A stretch of 63,821 bases of DNA, filler included, from Chrysochromulina tobinii (lineage: Eukaryota): NCBI GenBank assembly GCA_001275005.1. It is 6 parts of 6 records of this genome, joined end to end, with 100 filler letters (N's around TTAATTAATTAA, not from the genome) between each part and the next. Parts side by side here need not be neighbours in the genome. Positions count along the whole stretch, not along the records: positions 9,799 to 17,987 come from JWZX01000561.1; 5 more parts are not named here. One strand, written 5' to 3'. Under the pieces are notes generated by a model. That model ran no database searches. It worked only from the letters and a program-made list of their open reading frames with translations, and was not told where the DNA came from. The number at the start of each line of letters is the position of its first letter. Within the stretch, counting starts at the first letter, position 1. Both the position numbers and the translations under genes were made by a program. Below, in pieces: positions 9,699 through 55,769 of this stretch.

Positions 9699-9798
9699 NN
9701 NNNNNNNNNNNNNNNNNNNNNNNNNNNNNNNNNNNNNNNNNNTTAATTAATTAANNNNNNNNNNNNNNNNNNNNNNNNNNNNNNNNNNNNNNNNNNNN
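9699..9798. other. Artificial contig spacer (also at 17988-18087, 29280-29379, 49368-49467, 55465-55564)
   Basis: Identical 44N + TTAATTAATTAA + 44N each time; the 12-mer has stops in all six frames. Confidence 0.97.
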
Positions 9799-9839
9799 TA
9801 GGGTTAGGGGTCAAAAGAGGAGAATGAGAGAAGAAATGA

Positions 9840-10023
9840 CCCTAACCCTAACCCTAACCCTAACCCTAACCCTAACCCTAACCCTACCCTAACCCTAACC
9901 CTAACCCTAAGAACCCTAACCCTAACCCTAAGAACCCTAACCCTAACCCTAAGAACCCGAACCCGAACCCGAACCCCGAACCCGAACCCCGAACCCGAAC
10001 CCGAACCCGAACCCGAACCCTAA
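9840..10023 (+). repeat. Telomere-type (CCCTAA)n tract degrading into CCCTAAGAA and CCCGAA variants
   Basis: Read directly; lies about 40 nt from a contig start. Confidence 0.9.
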
Positions 10024-10277
10024 GTGCAAATTCCAAATATGCAACTTTTTTCCAAAGTGTAAAGACTTCCCGCTATGACTAACCTTTCAAAACGTACCAA
10101 AATGCGTTATGTACAAATGCATTTGCGTAGACGTACAAATACTGTCCAAATGCGTTACGTTCGGTGTCGTCGTGCTCGTGTCGTAAGGTCAACGGCTGAG
10201 ATATCTTCAGACAGTGGGCTTACTCTTGACCAAATGCGTAGACGTACTTAAAGAAATTGAAAAGAACCGCGTCGCGA

Positions 10278-13200
10278 TCACCCTTCTTGGTGAACGCGAC
10301 CGGCTGTTCGCAGTGCGTGGATAAACGAGACAAGCACCCAGCGGAAGTTGGCCGCTGCGCACACGGTTTGAAAGCCCAGAGCGTCCGTGCTAGCAGGCAG
10401 CATCTGCCGCCGGAGGGACTTGCGGATATTGATCACACTCTGACGGTCGGGCTCATGTTGGCAAAATGCCGTTTCGAGCTTATCATCGGTCTGCAGCAGC
10501 CACCCGGGCGTCGTGTGAGAGCTCACAGCAGGGTCGCTTGAGTTTACGATGCGCTGGGTAAAAGCTGAGGCGCTGAAGCCGTGCAGGCACCACATGGACT
10601 CGAAGTAAGTGCATCGATGGTCGAGCATGGGCGCATCGGGCAGCACGACGGTTTTAATGCGGAAGTGGGTGTTGGCGAAGCGAGCCCACCAGACATTCTG
10701 TTCCGCCTTGCGGCCCTCCTCCCAGTCGATGCTCGTCCAATCCCAGAGCACAAGATCCTCATCAAAAGCTTCATTATCCCTATCCAGCACTGCGACCAGC
10801 TTTTCGAGCCGATGGCGCTCCTTGTCTGGATGCTTCTCTTCGGCCCATCGGTAGTCTAGGCAGTAGAGCTGCACGTTGCTCGGCGGAGCGCCCACGTGTA
10901 GCGCTTTGGCCGGGGCGTGCTTTCGCTTTGGCACAACAAGCTGCTCCTTGTACCATCGACGCAGGAAGCCGACCCGCACCCAGGCAATATTCAGCCTGCT
11001 GCACGTTTCATTGAAGCCGGCGACGTCCCATCGCGGGTCGCGTTCCTCCTCAGGCTTTTTAATGAGCGTGTGGCGAGACGCTCGGGTGGATGGCTTGGAA
11101 GCCGCACAGCCCATCAGCAATGGACCGCGGTACCGCTTGGAAGAGATGAAATTGGAAGATAAGTCCAGCCAGTGCAATGTTCTGCCAGAGAGCGCCTCGG
11201 CGAGAGCCTTGCCGCCCTCATCCCCCAGCCCGTTGCTGTTGAGGCTCAGCTGTGTCAGCGTCGTGTTTGTCCGGAGCGCCATGGCGAGCGAGCGGCCGCC
11301 GGCATCGCCCAGCTTGTTACCGTTGAGGCTCAGCTGCGTCAGCGTCGTGTTCGTCTTGAGCACCTCGCCGATCTCCTTGCCGCTCTCCTCGCCGAGCTCA
11401 TTGCTACCCAAGTCGAGCAGCTCCGCCTCAACAGCAACGGGCTGGGCGATGCGGGCGGCTGCGCGCTCGCGGTGGCGCTCCAGACGAACACAACGCTGGC
11501 GCAGCTCGACTTGGGTGGCAACGAGCTCGGCGCGGAGAGCGGCAAGGCGATGGTCGAGGCGCTCAAGACGAACACGACGCTTCGTACGGTTGCGTTGGAC
11601 GGCGATGTTCTCTCGATCGCGGAGATCACCACAGCGGCAAGAATTACGCTTTCGGAGAAGCGCTTGGGCGATGCGTCGGGGATCGTGATCGCGCACCTAG
11701 TCACACGTCACCGGTCTTTGACGCGGCTTGACTTGAACAGCAACAAGCTGGGCGACGCGTGTGGCTGCGCGCTTGCCGAAGCGCTCAAGACGAGCACGAC
11801 CCTGACGCAGCTCGACTTGGGTGGCAACGAGCTCGGCGCGGAGAGCGGCAAGGCGATGGTCGAGGTGCTTGAGACGATCACGACCCTGACGCAGCTCGAC
11901 TTGGGCGACAACGAGCTCGGCGCGGAGAGCGGCAAGGCGATGGTCGAGGCGCTCAAGACGAACACGGCGTTGACGCAGCTCGACTTGGGCGGCAACGAGC
12001 TCGGAGCGGAGTGCGGCAAGGCGATGGCCGAGGTGCTCAAGACAAACAGGACGCTGAGGCATCTGAGCCTCAACGGCGCCAAGATGGGCGATGCGGGCGG
12101 CTGCGCGCTCGTGGTGGCGCTCCAGACCAACACGACGCTGGCGCAGCGTTAGAGTCGGGTTGAACTCGATGCACTTGGCAATCACAATTGCTGATGCATC
12201 TTCCAGGCTCTTCCAGGAGTAGTCCAGGAAATGAACTGGAACAGTGCCCTTCAGCTGCTCAATGTTAAGCTCAAACCCATCGATGTTCATCTTTTTAAGC
12301 ATTGTCATTAACTGCAGGTCAGACCCAATCAGGATGGCGTCGGCGGGTTGGAGGCTCTGGCCCGAGAGGTTGGCCTCCGTCTGGTCGCGCGTCATGCCCG
12401 AGAGCATGATGCAGTTCTCCGTGCCGATCTTGGCGAGCATCGTGGCCGACTTAATGTCGAGATTGTTCTTGAGCAGGCTGCAGTGTTTCAGCTCTGTGTT
12501 CTTCATCATGGCCGCCAGCACGATCCACACCGTCTTGGGGTCGCCGCCGAGCTTCTGCGAGAGGTCGAGCGTGTTGCCCGTCACCCCGGCCGTGCACAGC
12601 AGCCCACGGCCAAAGGCGTCGCCCATCTCGCTGCCGAACGTGACCACGTTGGCCCATAACGCCGGCCATTGCCACGGCGGCGGCGACCCCTCGGGGAGGC
12701 GGTACTTTCCCGAGCAGATGGCGCGCGCTGCAAAGTACTCTTGGAAGGAGTGGTGCGCCGACTGCATCTGGATCGGCTCGACCTGCAGCAGGCTGAGAAT
12801 AGGGAGCCTATCCTGCCCCACGCGCTCGCGAACCTGCGCGACCGCCGCCTGCTTCTCGTCGCGCAGCGCCTTGACCGCACTGCGCAGGGCAGGAAGGCGC
12901 CTCGCGTCCGCTCTCGCCATCTGCGCCCGGCAAGCAGCTTCATCCAGCCCGGACGATGCGAGCTGCTCGGGGTTCAGGTACCCTGTTGTGGTGCCGTCCG
13001 CCAACTTGACCTTGTATGGCTGGCTGTCCTTGTAGTCCTGGACAATCTCGCCGCGTTGGCCCTTCCGCTCGCCCTCCAGCAGCTCCACGTAGTGGCCCAC
13101 CTCCGCCCGGCCCTTGAACGTCTGGAAAGGGTTCGCCACCTTCGCATCCAGGTCGGCGAGCGCGCTCGCCGGCGCAAAGGCGCCCAGCGCCGCGCGGAGG

Positions 13201-16200
13201 AGCTGCACGTCGGTGATCACGCGCGTCTGCGCCACGTGCGCCTCGAAGAACACGGCTTCCAGCAGCATGCGCCTTTCTGCCGTCCCGCCGCCGCCGCGCG
13301 CGAGCATCACGTCCGATGCGATCGCGTACAGCTCGGCGACCGTCTTCGGCATGCCCAGCCCTTTGCGGATCTCGAAGACCGACGCGACCATCGAGAGCAT
13401 CAGCGGGTTGGCCGTGACGCGATGCAGCGTCGTCGGCGCGTCGGGGTCCGTGCTCGTTGGCATGCGCTCGACAAAGGTCATCAGCTGCTTCACGTCCCCC
13501 TCATTCCCCAGTCGCTGCAGCAGCGCCTGCTCTTGCTGCGCCTCGGTCAGCGGCGCCAGGTTCAGCAAGCGGAATCCGGAAAAACGCGCCTCGTCGACGC
13601 CCGCCGGCCGCGAGGTGCAGAGCATCACGTGGCCCTGCGGTGCCAGCACCTCAACAATATGCTGCTCAATCTCGGCGCGCTTGGCTCCGGCCTCGTTGAG
13701 CCCGTCGAGGAGGAGCAGCGCTCGCCGCGCCGTCATCGCCTGGCGCAGCATGCGGTACACCTCGGGCCTCTCAGTGAGGCAGAGGTACGCGTCGATCCAG
13801 TTCCAGTGCGACGCGAACGCGTCTGGTGTATCGCGCAGCCTCGCCTGGAGCAGCTGCACCTTGATCACGATGGGCACCAGCTCGGCGCGATCGAGCGCCA
13901 GGACCACCGCCTGGCTGATGAGCGTCGTCTTGCCCGCTGCGGGCGGCGCGGTGAGCAGCGCGGCTCCCGGGGCAGTGATCGCCTCGCCGAAGCTTCGTGA
14001 AGCGTGTAGCGAGTGCAGCCAATCGCTCAGGCCGCGCACGTCGTGCACGCCAGCCAGATCAGCATCTCCCATCACTTCGATGGCCACGCACTGCTGCAGC
14101 GCATCCAACGGATTGCCGGAGAGCGCATCGAAGATCTGCGAGTGCTGCGTGCGCAGCTCCCGCGTCCACCACCCGCTAAGCGCCTCGTAGGCGGCGTGCG
14201 GCAGCTCGCGCGGCGCGTGGTTCCACGGGTGCAGCGTGAGCGTGGCTGGTGACTCGCCGCTGCCCTCCAAGAAGGTGAGGCCATGGCAGAGGCCGTCGGC
14301 GCCCGCCGTTGCCACGTTGGCATCGCGCCACCCGGCGGCCGTACGCACGGTGAGCGGCTGGCCGGCGGCGTAGCGCCGGGCGCCGAGCGCGCCGCTGGAG
14401 AGCAGCGCCGTAGTGACCATGGCCTCGGGCAGCAGCCTCTCGACCGCCGCACGCACCTTGCCGAGCGCGGCTTGGAGCTGCGTCAGATCGCCGTCACCAA
14501 AGAGCGCCGCCGCTGCGTCTACGCACGACCACACAGCGCCGCCCGCCTCGCGCGCCACGTGCGCGATCGTTTGGCACCGCGCTGCGCCGTCGGCAATCGC
14601 GCGCGCTCGCTCGCCGACGGCGAGCAGCGCCGATTCCGACTCCATCCGCCGAGCATCGTCCGCCAGGCGGCGTGCAGGCTCGACGAGGTTGTGGAGCGCA
14701 CGCGCATCGCCGATAAACGCGGCGTCCCAGCCGGCAGCGGGCGGCCGCCACGGCAGCACCGCCTGGCTGCATCGGTCGTAGGCGAGCTCGAACTCATCGC
14801 CGCCCGTGACGGCGGCAGCGACACGCCCCCCGGTCGCATCGACGACGCCAAAGCGCGGCCCGTCGCCCGCGCCGCTGCCCTGCGAAGAGAGCAGGAGCAG
14901 CGGCTGTCCCTCGGCAAGGCGCAGCGGCGACGCGGCAGGCGCATCGACCTGCGGCAGCGGCTCCGCCGGCGCGGCCGTCGCGCTGTGCGACGCCATCTGA
15001 AGCGCCCCGAGCGTCTTTGTCAGCGCGCCGACGGTGTTGTGCACGTACTCCTTATAGAGGCTGATGACCTTGTGCTTTTCGCCCTTGCTCGTGAACTTAG
15101 ACTTGTTGATCCGCTCAATGTCAGCGGCTACGTCGAGCTCGATCGCCGTAACCTCAACCGCTGTCGCGTCCGCGTCGCTGCTCAGCGCGAAGACCTTGGG
15201 CTGCAGCTGATCGAGGGGCTTCCGGAGCGCGGGGTAGGCCGTCAACCGCTTTATGAGGTCTCGGCTCAACGAGTCTTCCAAGCAGCACCTGCGCGGGAGA
15301 GTGCGGCAGGCGCGTGAGGGTTATGAAAGGGGATCCAATCACATCTGCAGAATAGGACGGGCAGCACTCACCATCCACGAGAAAAGTACGGCGTCTCATT
15401 GTAGAGCGTGTCGAGCCCCTCGCATAGGCCGGGCCATGAACCCGCGTTCTTGGCCGCGACGGCAGACTCGTGCGAGGCAAAGCGCACAATGGGGGGGCTG
15501 TGGCTGAGGTCGCAGCTCTCAATAGTTCCGAACCCGATGAGCGCCGCGCGTACCGCGCTCTCGTCGACGTTTGCGCTCAACATGAACAAGCAGACAACGC
15601 CATCGAACTCGGCTGGCCGGGGTGGGATCTCCTCGATCTGGAGCACGGTCGTTGCGAGGATCGACGCAAACAGCAGATTCAACGCCCCCCCCTTGAGTGC
15701 CATCGAAAAGAACTCATCCTGCTCCGGGGTCCTTGGTCTCTGATACAGCGATCCAAAGTCCCAGAACAAGGCTTCAATTCGAATTGCCATCCCCTTCAGA
15801 GCGCGTCGAAGCGACGCGGATGCGCGAGCCGTCCGGATCTGGATCGCCTGGACTGAGCCAGCCGTAGGTAAGCGCGCCGATGCTCCGATCTCCACGCTCG
15901 ACGAGCGCTGCGGCCTCTTGAGGGTTCAGCAGTGGCGACGGCGAGACCCCGCTCTTTTCAATCTCCTCGAGCGCCTGCCGATTCGGCATCTTGAAGTTGG
16001 CTGGCTGCATCAGTAGCCACTTGACGCATAGCAACCGAACCGCTCCTCTCAGAAGGACTAGTATGATGATTTTGTCGAGCTCTGTGAGCGCCTGACGCAG
16101 CTTTGGCGGCAGCGGTGTACCTGGAGCTGCCTCCGGCACGTCAAGGCCGAGACTCACGAGCTTCCTCTTGTGTTGTTCGCCCACATCGTCGAGAAACACC

Positions 16201-16994
16201 GACCGCTCCTGCGCCGATGCACCTTCGTAGGCAGCCTTGATGTCCGCGTCTGGGCTCTCGTCGGTCAAAGCAGAGGCACCCGCACCCATGCCTCCTCGGA
16301 TGCGCAAAATCCCTGCCAATCGCTCCCCTGCCGCCAGCTCAATCACGTCAACAATGGAGATGCCGATCTCGACGTTCGTCGGCTCGGCCACCGCCCCTGC
16401 CGACGCCACCTCTGCCGACGCCGCCTCTGCCGACGCAGCCTCTGCCGATGCCGCCGCTCCCTCCGTCGCCGCTCCGGCCGCCGGCAGCACAACCTCTGTC
16501 TTCTTCCGCCTACAGTTGGCAGCCTTGGCGATGAGCTTGGGGATCTTGGTGCACGAGATGATGAAGATATGCACGGCGGAGGTAGTCATGAAGATCCAGA
16601 GGCGAGGATGAGTGAGGAACCAATGCAGAACTATGAGGATAGAGAGCGCGCCGTCCTTGTCGCGATTGAACGCATGGAAGGCCACGAGCTCCTCGATGAA
16701 TTGAATGGCCGGGTCGATGAAATACCCCACGGTGGCACGCGGCTTCGCCCACTGGCTTTGCTTCAGGGCACCCATCATGCCATCGAGAGAGCAGTTGCGA
16801 GAGATAAGCCCCATCGCAGCCTCACGCGTCCACATGAAATCGGCGGGGAAAGCGCCGCCGCCGCTGCTTGCCGTGGCTGCTGCTGCAGCAAGCGACGAGT
16901 TGTGGCGCTGCGGGGCTGAAAAACGGGCCTGAGAGGCATTTTTGCCGACCCCCCCGATGTCGAGGAGCGGATCGAGTCGAGTTGAGAGCGTCAT
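10278..16994 (-). CDS. NLR-like protein: HET-like + NACHT NTPase + ribonuclease-inhibitor-type LRR + second HET-like domain; disrupted as assembled (frameshift near 15812, LRR inversion 11418-12146); intron 15289-15371
   Basis: HET-like: ALTYGWLSPGDPDPDG...LFWDFGSLYQ...TTVLQ...PYFSRGW|CCLE. NACHT: TAPPAAGKTTL, LLLLDGLNE, CTSRP, ANPLML, HHSFQEYFAA. 28-aa LRRs TLTQLDLGGNELGAESGKAMVEALKTNT. C-terminal CLDYRW..HPD..VLWDWTSI..YFESMWCL. The start codon is tentative. Confidence 0.8.
11418..12146 (+). other. Inverted 729-nt (243-codon) LRR cassette belonging to the minus-strand NLR-like gene
   Basis: LRRs read on + only between these coordinates. The minus-strand reading breaks off at ...EFNPTLT (12147) and resumes at LDLGSNELG (11417). 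Confidence 0.9.
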
Positions 16995-18087
16995 GAGCGC
17001 GAGGAGTGTTCTAGTCGCCGTTCCGTGAGTTAAGTTCCTGTGAGTTGGAACACTCACGTGACATGGAGAATGGCCTTCCCCCGTGTCTCAGTGTGTATGT
17101 GTGTAGGTACGCGAAGCGTTACTGTGGGGAAACGTGAGGGGTAGGCGTTCGCTGGATTTGCGAGTCTCCGACGCGTGTCGCGTGGCTTGCTTGTGCCCGC
17201 CTGTGTGAGCGTGGCCTGCGGTGTTACCCGCAAGCAGTGTAAGCTGATTGAGAGACTAATCTGTCCTCGAACTTGGAACGTGGTGACGTCTGTGAAAAAA
17301 GATTCTAAAGTGAAAGGTAAGTACGTGTTTTTTTCTGTTTTTGCTGTTTATGCGGAAAAAATGGCGGCGAGGAAGCCTAATCCGGCCACCAATGGCCTCG
17401 GCTCGGATGGGGTCGACGGGTTGCAGCGCTGGGGCGACGTGCCGCCGACCGCGGTGGAAGCCGATCTGTCTGAAGTGTTCCTTCTCGAAGACATGGTCAC
17501 TTCGGCCTTCGTGATGAATGAGGAGCTTCATATCCTCTCGTGGTAGGGCGACGTGACGACGCTCAAGGTGGACGCGGTGGTGACTTGCAATAACGATGGC
17601 ATGAACGAGCGCGCGGGTGTTTCGGGCCAGCTCTTCGTTGCCGCTGGCCCGCAGCTCGACGAGAAAGCCACAGCCGAGAAGGCGGCGGCAAACAAGGCAG
17701 CAGACGCGAAAGCCGCTGCCGAAAAGGCCGCAGCAGCGGCGGCGGCGGAGGCGGCGCTTCGTCGTCATATGCTGTGCGTGCTTCCGTCGAGATGGCGGCG
17801 GCGGAGGCAAAGGCGGTGGCCGAGAAGGGGGCGGCGGAGGCCAAGGCGGCGGCCGAGAAGGCGGCGGCCGAAGCCTCAGTCGCGGCCAAGAAGGCAGCAA
17901 AGAAAACCGCGAACGGCGAACCGCGCGCGCGGGCCCCGCGGGCGCGCGCGCGCCCCGGGCAAGCGCCCCAGGGCGCCAGGAGGGCGCNNNNNNNNNNNNN
18001 NNNNNNNNNNNNNNNNNNNNNNNNNNNNNNNTTAATTAATTAANNNNNNNNNNNNNNNNNNNNNNNNNNNNNNNNNNNNNNNNNNNN

Positions 18088-29279: not shown

Positions 29280-29955
29280 NNNNNNNNNNNNNNNNNNNNN
29301 NNNNNNNNNNNNNNNNNNNNNNNTTAATTAATTAANNNNNNNNNNNNNNNNNNNNNNNNNNNNNNNNNNNNNNNNNNNNAGGACGGTCCGGGACGAGCCA
29401 GCATGGGCCGGGACAGGCGCCATTCGGATTTTTGGTTAGTGTCGCTAACCCCACTTTCTCTCTGACAGTGTGTTCTTATTTATACGGACACATGAGAGAG
29501 GGTGCGGAGGCGCAGGATTCCTCATTAACATTATTATTTTGTCCTTAAAAATACACCGCGAATCCACATTCGTTTCGTCAAATTCCTCTGCTTTGCGAGC
29601 TTTGTGTGTGCTCGAAATCGTAAATGCCTAATCATTGTTTCGAGCCCTTTAATCGTAAATCGATGACCTGGTTCAGCCGAAATCTGGAGCGCGTCCGCCG
29701 GCGCACATTCGTATCGTCCAATTCTCTTCAATTCCTAGTTTATAGGATACCTATTTGGTCCCTGGTTGCAGAGAGAGGTGTCAGAGGTTTCACGATTCTT
29801 ATGTACAGACACGGCGGCGCTCGCACACTCACACGGGGTTCGATGAAACCGTCTACCCGCACGAGCCGTCCAATCGTCCGAGCCGCCAAGAAATGTACGG
29901 AGCTGGCGCCGGGCCAACCACGATCCAGTCCTAGTTTCTGGTAAGCACGATAGTC

Positions 29956-49238: not shown

Positions 49239-49687
49239 AGATCAACAAAGATAAACGGGCCGGTGGTCGGAGTTCTTTTAATAGCGCCGAGTTGGGACGA
49301 GTCGGTGAGGACGATCTGCCTTGGTCTCAGTTCGATTCAACCTAAATCGGGTCACACAATTCTAGGTNNNNNNNNNNNNNNNNNNNNNNNNNNNNNNNNN
49401 NNNNNNNNNNNTTAATTAATTAANNNNNNNNNNNNNNNNNNNNNNNNNNNNNNNNNNNNNNNNNNNNGCGCGTCTGAATGCATGCAAAAAACAATGAAAT
49501 GCATATGTATGCACACGCATGCATACGAATGCACATGAATGCGTATGTTAAAAAACAACACCACTTTCGTTAAAAAACAACACTCCACCCATTAATTCGC
49601 GAGGGCGCGAGCGCGCCGCGTCACCAGTACCGGGCGAGGGCTGCGCGCCCGCGACGGCGCCCAGCGCAATAGATATCCGACGCGTCG

Positions 49688-55203: not shown

Positions 55204-55769
55204 TTGTATGCGTCGATAGCTTCCCACTGTGATCGGCTCATCGAGTGCGCCAACGTGTACTCTGCCTTGGCAAGCTCCTCCTCTTTGGCCTTGCGCTCCT
55301 TGCGCACGTCGGCGTCGCGCCGCCACGACGATCGCGAGCTCGGAGGGCGAGGTCATCTTGTTGCTAGACACTCAAGGGTCTCTCCACAGTCCGGACGAAA
55401 CGCGCCGTTTTGGACCCCGCATGCAATTGGGGGAATGGGGGGGGGAGGGGGGGGGGGGGGGGGGNNNNNNNNNNNNNNNNNNNNNNNNNNNNNNNNNNNN
55501 NNNNNNNNTTAATTAATTAANNNNNNNNNNNNNNNNNNNNNNNNNNNNNNNNNNNNNNNNNNNNTAACGGCAACGGCCGGCCTCCCACCACCTCTCTCAG
55601 GAGGTTATAATAATGCTAAACTTACGATATGACTTCACCAACCATCAATAAGGATTCGAGCCGAAATGACCTCACTTTTACCCTACCCGGAACCCGCCCA
55701 CGGGCGAACGACGCGACGCCGCCGCCGTGCCCGCGAAGGGGCCACCTCGACTCCGGGTCCGGCAGTAGT

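What the first reader, a model, noticed from the sequence alone, without database searches (positions are those of the whole stretch)
12147..16994. Fungal-style HET effector + NACHT + animal-style RI-type LRR architecture in an alga
Seen: a HET-like domain (with a possible RRM-like insert, VCLFMLSANVDESAVRAAL...IVRFASHESA), helical linker, NACHT with an SH3/KOW-like insert (VGHYVELLEGERKGQRGEIVQDYKDSQPYKVKLADG), then LRRs. Known: HET is a TIR-related cell-death effector of fungal NLRs, which lack LRRs, while NACHT-LRR is typical of animals. Inference: an independently assembled NLR with integrated domains.
Basis: partly seen in the sequence, partly recalled or inferred. Interest (0 to 1): 0.7.

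Follow-up and report, generated by a model that had tools for sequence, protein, structure and literature searches.

The report
Algal HET-NACHT-LRR receptor, sensor flipped
A freshwater alga has a large family of likely immune receptors that join a fungal-like, probably cell-killing domain to an animal-like repeat sensor, and in this copy most of the sensor lies backwards in the DNA, so it is likely disabled.

Summary
The architecture is real. This is a Chrysochromulina tobinii gene encoding a HET/TIR-like domain with an RRM inserted inside it, a NACHT with a KOW-like insert, and RI-type LRRs. It belongs to an expanded haptophyte family; 17 of 120 homologues hold all three parts in one model.

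RRM fold: Z 10.6. TIR fold: weak, best Z 5.3, but 14 of 50 rows are TIR/SEFIR, and the putative catalytic Glu is kept. Pfam HET never matched.

The finding does not mention three things:
(1) The frame break at 15813 is an assembly error.
(2) A 731-bp LRR block (11417-12147) is inverted, in register, in other assemblies too. An un-inverted relative appears in one lake RNA contig.
(3) Beyond it lies a second, tandem HET-like unit whose second half is deleted.

This copy is likely a disabled allele. HET homologues in haptophytes and NACHT-LRR in choanoflagellates are in print; ten searches found no paper on the combination. The scan earlier noted a haptophyte NACHT-LRR on other DNA. Verdict: new variant of a known kind.

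The parts
16308..16994 (-). Exon 1 leader from the first ATG (16994). Holds a hydrophobic stretch (by eye, not computed) and an Ala/Glu-rich linker; other paralogues carry a different leader.
   Evidence: open and conserved in paralogue L009
16272..16307 (-). Ubiquitin-like di-glycine motif directly followed by Met (16289) and an N-myristoylation-like Gly-x-x-x-Ser motif; possible cleavage and lipid anchor, or an alternative start (inferred).
   Evidence: 35 of 120 HET-exon proteins carry the motif, and all 35 continue with (Met)-Gly-x-x-x-Ser, in two unlike sequence lineages
15000..16112 (-). HET/TIR-like effector domain (HET1). Core starts about 15884; putative catalytic Glu codon 15278-15276, just after the intron.
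15813..15813 (.). One extra base that breaks the frame; assembly error of the window.
   Evidence: absent in L001, L002 and in all contigs laid across it in X1, X2, X4, X11 (table 4)
15404..15619 (-). RRM-fold insert inside HET1, between the third strand and the helix bearing the Glu.
   Evidence: VIA Z 10.6, rmsd 2.2, 72 aligned; Pfam RRM_1 E 0.021
15289..15371 (-). 83-nt GT-AG intron.
   Evidence: read; same join in NCBI model P0121; 3 RNA contigs of paralogues in X11 end here with exon-2-like loose letters (table 7)
14031..14999 (-). Helical linker with two short, possibly beta-barrel segments (unassigned).
   Evidence: no informative Pfam match
12620..14030 (-). NACHT module. Walker A 13949-13923; Walker B 13718-13692 with its second Asp changed to Asn (13697) in this allele.
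   Evidence: PF05729 E 7.6e-4, under the cut-off; several relatives pass it; 108 of 120 homologues carry the usual Walker B motif with this Asp
12960..13121 (-). KOW/SH3-like core of an insert of about 100 residues before the winged-helix motif.
   Evidence: Pfam KOW E 0.11; Spt5 KOW E 0.017; spacing 111-120 aa in 14 of 98 and 200 or more in 74 of 98 homologues
12148..12619 (-). First, degenerate LRRs, in frame with NACHT.
11417..12147 (+). Inverted block of RI-type LRRs (243 codons, no stop in the coding direction). On the gene's strand it reads as a 150-residue antisense tail ending at the stop 11699-11697.
   Evidence: LRR_6 E 3.4e-26 on plus; both junctions in L001, L002; 12147 junction bridged in X1-X4
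11145..11416 (-). Last three to four LRRs, cut off by the inversion.
10299..11114 (-). Second HET-like unit: Met at 11114 with another myristoylation-like motif, first repeat complete but without the Glu, second repeat reduced to its first strand and helix.
   Evidence: Atlas 0.93 to clusters, the best auto-named heterokaryon-incompatibility domain; 61% to P0255 aa 18-275; HET1 profile hits P0255, P0256 twice each
10220..10324 (-). Out-of-frame remnant of the end of the second repeat; about 230 residues are missing before it.
   Evidence: 70% to P0255 aa 508-540 in another frame
9810..10023 (.). Telomere-like hexamer repeat tract just downstream; a satellite follows in L002.

Best explanation
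This is a Chrysochromulina NLR-like gene (HET/TIR-like domain with an RRM insert, NACHT, RI-type LRRs) whose intact relatives likely act as intracellular immune receptors, and this copy is likely disabled because most of its LRR block is inverted. Shown: the domain order, the inserts, the family expansion, the inversion and the deletion. Inferred for intact members: the LRRs hold the NACHT off until a cue (virus or other non-self) arrives; nucleotide exchange then drives oligomerisation, which clusters the HET/TIR-like domains, and these cleave NAD+ with the conserved Glu to kill the cell or make a signal. A lipid anchor on the Gly after the di-glycine motif would hold the receptor at a membrane. 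Inferred for this copy: the ancestor read through about 14 LRRs into a tandem HET-like unit (first repeat without Glu, second with). A one-off template switch between 5-bp quasi-palindromes at the same position of two repeats flipped 731 bp and cut off the tail; before or after this, the tail lost about 230 residues. The present product would be about 1,740 residues with a few degenerate LRRs and an antisense tail.
For: Fold: confident models (pLDDT 93.8 and 93.1). The no-RRM relative P0249 ranks the TIR SpbK first (Z 5.3, rmsd 3.0, 96 aligned), with 14 TIR/SEFIR and 7 deoxyribosyltransferase rows of 50. Trp-x-x-x-Glu in 24 of 26 contexts. Family: 172 homologues with E<=0.001 among 7,989 scored; 17 of 120 with HET core, NBD and LRRs in one model, 38 more with the HET tail; 8 copies at 90-97% nucleotide identity, some perhaps mosaic; swapped ends such as ankyrin+SPRY, PH, Fic/Hint, methyltransferase, SAM. 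Inversion real: L002 differs from the window at 2 of 7,496 positions and L001 is identical from 13225 down; the 12147 junction is bridged in 4 of 4 DNA runs. Derived: antisense LRRs in 1 of 120 homologues and 2 of 20 loci, both this locus; one X11 RNA contig shows the un-inverted joint 11421/12147 and another bridges LRR and HET2. Decay: Walker B Asn and three changes in a HET helix motif kept in 126 of 132 contexts; frameshifting deletion in HET2. Context: TIR, LRR and NACHT genes are up in virus-resistant G. huxleyi (PMC12489294, passages).
Against: Pfam HET never matched. Foldseek found nothing for the no-RRM model, and Z 5.3 is below the 7-8 that the tool calls typical for models without a clear match. 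The fold was tested on two relatives (P0011, P0249), not on the window's own sequence. No enzyme activity is established for any HET domain in the review passages read (PMC10197012). Private changes in this copy give dN/dS 0.46 against 0.11-0.53 in seven other copies, Fisher p 0.34, so overall relaxation is not shown; the Glu and Walker A are kept. No RNA contig covers the inverted junction in X11-X14, so expression of this allele is unknown. The un-inverted RNA contig is single, depth 5.8, about 89% alike, and RNA libraries can hold DNA. All DNA support comes from mixed-culture data that may be one strain.
Confidence: 0.62

Rival explanations
1. The copy still works in shortened form, as a sensor-less helper or a receptor with few LRRs, either with the antisense tail or with the inverted block spliced out.
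For: Both exons are open in L002; the Glu and Walker A are kept; dN/dS is not different from other copies. The NCBI model P0121 predicts a splice shortly before the block.
Against: Walker B Asn and the HET helix changes occur only in this allele; the downstream unit is frameshifted; no RNA contig covers the junction.
Confidence: 0.2
2. The HET-like domain is a non-catalytic adaptor that recruits other HET-like proteins, as first proposed for fungal HET (PMC4986451).
For: Low Z to TIR enzymes; an RRM sits next to the Glu helix; the first repeat of HET2 lacks the Glu; many stand-alone and HET-MORN partners exist.
Against: The Glu is kept in 24 of 26 contexts across distant relatives; TIRs of other protists are active enzymes (10.64898/2026.04.20.719644, passages).
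Confidence: 0.2
3. The block is a reversible DNA switch that turns the sensor on and off.
For: Both breakpoints sit at the same repeat position, no bases are lost, flipping back gives one open frame to 10281, and an un-inverted form exists in X11.
Against: No flipped-back joint in 0 of 4 DNA runs (contigs drop rare variants). Only 5 bp of imperfect symmetry at the ends and no matching long inverted repeats. 60 of 256 breakpoint pairs also give an open frame, so that test is weak. The X11 form is a different allele. The tail is decaying.
Confidence: 0.04
4. The inversion is an assembly artefact of the repeat array.
For: The window has one proven assembly error (15813), and assemblies of these paralogues are mosaic: 91 of 94 codon differences of L001 occur in other copies.
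Against: The same junctions stand in L001 and L002, in proteins P0001 and P0122-P0124, and in single-copy-depth contigs of 4 of 4 DNA runs, one with no mismatch over 381 nt.
Confidence: 0.02

Closest known systems
Fungal HET-NACHT-WD40 receptors (Podospora HET-E, HET-D, HET-R; PMC4986451)
   Same: HET/TIR-like N-terminal domain on a NACHT; paralogue family with highly similar repeats, mosaic copies and swapped ends.
   Different: Sensor is RI-type LRR (that paper found no LRR in fungal NLRs); no PF06985 match; RRM inside the effector; insert in the NACHT; host is a unicellular alga.
Animal NLRs (NOD2, NLRP3) and choanoflagellate NACHT-LRR proteins (PMC6040629)
   Same: NACHT followed by 28-residue RI-type LRRs.
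   Different: No CARD or PYD; the NACHT region has no sequence match to any solved animal NLR (0 at E<=10; all 60 rows shown match by LRR).
Plant TIR-NB-LRR receptors and animal TeTIR-NACHT proteins (10.64898/2026.09.21.753143, passages)
   Same: TIR-like domain with a Glu placed before a STAND ATPase; likely the same oligomerise-then-cleave logic.
   Different: NACHT rather than NB-ARC (plants); a HET-like rather than canonical TIR or TeTIR domain; activity untested.
Ctob_015662, Ctob_001341, Ctob_009044 (C. tobinii) and E. huxleyi A0A7S3T6I3
   Same: This gene's own partial model and close relatives.
   Different: Annotated only as hypothetical, NACHT-domain or uncharacterised; the HET-like domain, RRM insert and inversion are not named.

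Membership tests
NACHT-type NLR (STAND) | NACHT P-loop domain with Walker A/B and winged-helix motif | tested here: met
   PF05729 E 7.6e-4 (under cut-off) here, above cut-off in relatives such as P0046, P0024, P0062; motifs counted
NACHT-type NLR (STAND) | N-terminal effector domain in the same protein | tested here: met
   exon 1 open in L002, intron supported; 29 of 120 homologues have the HET core before the NBD
NACHT-type NLR (STAND) | Intact C-terminal repeat sensor in the same frame | tested here: not met
   in this copy the main LRR block is inverted; met in paralogues
NACHT-type NLR (STAND) | Ligand-triggered oligomerisation | not testable with these tools
   needs biochemistry
HET domain (PF06985) | Match to the Pfam HET profile | tested here: not met
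   no hit in 5, 30 and 13 proteins scanned; not filed as a member
HET domain (PF06985) | Three conserved blocks on TIR strand A to helix C, ending Trp-x-x-x-Glu | tested here: inconclusive
   blocks seen in order, Glu in 24 of 26, Atlas auto-label HET at 0.93 for the C-terminal unit but only 0.82, unnamed, for HET1; the fungal consensus is recalled and no fungal sequence was aligned
TIR superfamily | Flavodoxin-like TIR fold | tested here: inconclusive
   relative P0249: best row TIR SpbK Z 5.3, 14 of 50 rows TIR/SEFIR; Foldseek no match
TIR superfamily | Glu-dependent NAD+ cleavage | not testable with these tools
   Glu present; activity needs assay
RRM | RRM fold | tested here: met
   Z 10.6, rmsd 2.2, 72 aligned; all 50 rows span the insert
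RRM | Aromatic RNA-binding residues of RNP1 | tested here: inconclusive
   by eye the third strand lacks them (consensus recalled), so RNA binding is doubtful
KOW/SH3-like | KOW motif and barrel fold | tested here: inconclusive
   Pfam KOW E 0.11, Spt5 E 0.017; not folded
Site-specific invertible switch | Inverted recombination sites flanking the segment | tested here: not met
   only 5 bp, 4 of 5 matching
Site-specific invertible switch | Both orientations in one population | tested here: inconclusive
   0 of 4 DNA runs show the other joint, but these are contigs, which drop rare variants
Site-specific invertible switch | Dedicated recombinase | not tested
   no whole genome held

The most novel reading that the evidence does not exclude
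Haptophytes run an undescribed NLR class in which a HET-type NADase carries its own RRM beside the active site, is released from a variable leader by cleavage after a ubiquitin-like di-glycine motif and anchored by myristoylation, and in some alleles has effector domains at both ends (HET-NACHT-LRR-HET-HET). This would give a single-celled system for assigning HET enzymology and algal antiviral cell death.
Probability: 0.25. Interest if true: 0.8.

Novelty: new variant of a known kind. Interest (0 to 1): 0.5.

Why it matters
How unicellular algae sense and die from infection is largely open, and the enzymatic activity of HET domains is named as unresolved (PMC10197012). An expanded, fast-recombining HET-NACHT-LRR family in a culturable haptophyte gives testable receptor candidates and shows another pairing of a TIR-like effector with NACHT and LRR. 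This copy itself is mainly a natural loss-of-sensor allele; intact paralogues (L003, L009, L017; Ctob_001341) are the better objects.

Tried and rejected
No whole genome was held, so copy number and a recombinase search were not possible. Viral contigs: 7 pattern matches, none confirmed; no viral fold match. Foldseek and VIA on the model with the RRM returned only RRMs and did not test the host domain. Pfam, NCBIfam and PADLOC named no HET or TIR family. The search of 50%-identity representatives was busy six times, then queued with P0255 and unfinished, so the link to fungal HET by transitive search and the range in dinoflagellates remain open. RNA runs X12-X14 have no contig over the 12147 junction: no evidence either way. 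Rejected: the frame break as a sign of a pseudogene (assembly error); L001, P0123 and P0124 as independent alleles (likely mosaics); the open frame after flipping as proof of anything (60 of 256 pairs open); faster decay of the 5' half (p 0.34). Leader hydropathy and a chance rate for the motif after the di-glycine were not computed. Earlier-finding look-ups by place and by sequence gave nothing. Urbach and Ausubel 2017 was not held.

Full report
Setting. The window is a string of contigs joined by N-linkers; the finding lies on one of 8,189 bases, 9799-17987. The NCBI model Ctob_015662 of Chrysochromulina tobinii sits on a contig of that length and matches the window's translation by eye. No whole genome was held.

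Gene structure. Three minus-strand frames carry the gene. The break between the first two is one extra base at 15813. L002, a contig of 49.8 kb from another assembly, differs from the window at 2 of 7,496 positions, one being that base; L001 lacks it too, and so do all contigs laid across it in four runs. It is an assembly error: exon 1 is open from 16994 in L002. An 83-nt intron (15371-15289, read) splits the effector just before its Glu. The NCBI model uses the same join, and three RNA contigs of paralogues stop there with exon-2-like loose ends.

The effector. Pfam HET did not match in 5, 30 or 13 proteins. A model of the domain from the 87% identical paralogue P0011 is confident (pLDDT 93.8), but its fold searches returned only RRMs: the insert is an RRM fold (Z 10.6, rmsd 2.2, 72 aligned). 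It is present in 47 of 54 aligned rows, including E. huxleyi; of the 7 without it only P0249 spans both flanks. I therefore folded P0249, which lacks it naturally (pLDDT 93.1). VIA ranked the TIR SpbK first (Z 5.3, rmsd 3.0, 96 aligned); 14 of 50 rows are TIR or SEFIR and 7 are nucleoside deoxyribosyltransferases. The Z is below the level the tool calls meaningful and Foldseek found nothing, so the evidence is the make-up of the list plus the motif: Trp-x-x-x-Glu in 24 of 26 contexts. I call it HET/TIR-like, not a PF06985 member. By eye the RRM lacks the usual aromatic residues of RNP1 (consensus recalled), so RNA binding is doubtful.

NACHT and LRR. PF05729 scores E 7.6e-4 here and passes the cut-off in several relatives. 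The spacing before the winged-helix motif is 111-120 residues in 14 of 98 homologues and 200 or more in 74; the insert's core resembles KOW weakly. The NACHT region matched no solved structure by sequence. The LRRs are RI-type, but such repeats are not animal-specific: the best rows include flagellar proteins and GALA.

The inversion. The block 11417-12147 codes LRRs on the plus strand, 243 codons without a stop. Both ends fall at the same place in the repeat, inside a 5-bp quasi-palindrome, and no bases are lost. L001 and L002 hold both junctions; the 12147 junction is bridged at single-copy depth (42-47) in 4 of 4 DNA runs; 4 of the 5 members of the protein cluster read the antisense tail. 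It is confined to this locus: 1 of 120 homologues and 2 of 20 loci (the other 18 are about seven paralogues in repeated assemblies, three of them partial). One RNA contig of lake run X11 shows the un-inverted joint (depth 5.8, about 89% alike on the LRR side). None of the four DNA runs shows it. All DNA support may come from one strain.

The lost tail. After the block the frame resumes: three to four LRRs, a Met at 11114, and a second HET-like unit. Its only two relatives among 760 longer candidates, P0255 and P0256, are tandem repeats of the HET1 profile. The window matches P0255 over residues 18-275 and, in another frame, 508-540, so about 230 residues of the second repeat, the one with the Glu, are deleted. 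An X11 contig with 12 differences in 321 nt bridges the LRR end and this unit, which favours a fusion; a separate gene starting at 11114 is not excluded.

Is the 5' half decaying? Only this allele has Asn for the second Walker B Asp (108 of 120 homologues carry the usual motif with this Asp) and three changes in a HET helix motif kept in 126 of 132 contexts. But private changes give dN/dS 0.46 (30 N, 22 S) against 83 N, 86 S in seven other copies, p 0.34. Loss of function is likely, not shown.

Family. 172 homologues were found among 7,989 candidates scored and 126 for the effector alone, named ones all haptophyte. Of 120, 17 hold HET core, NBD and two or more LRRs in one model, and 38 more start at the intron and hold the HET tail. 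The same NACHT occurs with ankyrin+SPRY, PH, Fic/Hint, dynein-stalk, methyltransferase or SAM domains, and the effector with MORN repeats. In 35 of 120 HET-exon proteins a ubiquitin-like di-glycine motif is followed at once by a myristoylation-like motif, in two unlike versions; many are near-identical copies, no chance rate was computed, and cleavage is an inference.

Literature. PMC4986451 (passages and section 16): HET is TIR-related, has homologues in Haptophyceae, and fungal NLRs lack LRRs. PMC2939053 (passages): no NACHT-LRR in 49 fungi. PMC6040629 (passages): NACHT+LRR in choanoflagellates. PMC12489294 (passages): TIR, LRR and NACHT genes up in virus-resistant G. huxleyi. PMC10197012 (passages): HET enzymatic activity still to be established. 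10.64898/2026.04.20.719644 and 10.64898/2026.09.21.753143 (passages): active protist TIRs; TeTIR-NACHT. PMC6332867 and PMC5869587 (passages): nothing on the di-glycine motif. Ten searches listed no paper on HET-NACHT-LRR in algae. I read no supplements, and Richter and Levin 2019 and Urbach and Ausubel 2017 were not seen; these may list such architectures.

Verdict. Observation confirmed; interpretation partly supported. New variant of a known kind at family level; this copy is likely a disabled allele. Interest 0.5.

Noticed in passing
window 16272-16307; L003, L008, L017 exon 1: Ubiquitin-like di-glycine motif directly followed by a myristoylation-like motif in 35 of 120 HET-exon proteins; a similar run occurs in the HET-MORN protein P0238, and P0118, P0243, P0251 start with Met-Gly.
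   Followed up: partly
L009, L010, L016 (LRR region): The same paralogue has 10, 8 and 14 LRR motifs in different assemblies: repeat-number variation or assembly collapse.
   Followed up: no
window 17295-17987: The window's contig stops matching L001 and L002 at 17294; both have other sequence upstream, so the window may be misjoined there.
   Followed up: no
window 9810-10023; L009 15489-15566: Telomere-like repeat tracts lie downstream of two copies, followed by a satellite in L002; possibly subtelomeric sites.
   Followed up: no
P0101, P0108: Other family members also carry a HET-like domain after the LRRs, here of the HET1 type.
   Followed up: partly
L003, L005, L008, L017 exon 1: These paralogues begin with a KOW/Tudor-like segment (by eye) in place of the hydrophobic leader.
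   Followed up: no
window 9699-9798, 17988-18087, 29280-29379, 49368-49467, 55465-55564: Five 100-base N-linkers: the window is six unrelated contigs, so neighbours across them mean nothing.
   Followed up: yes
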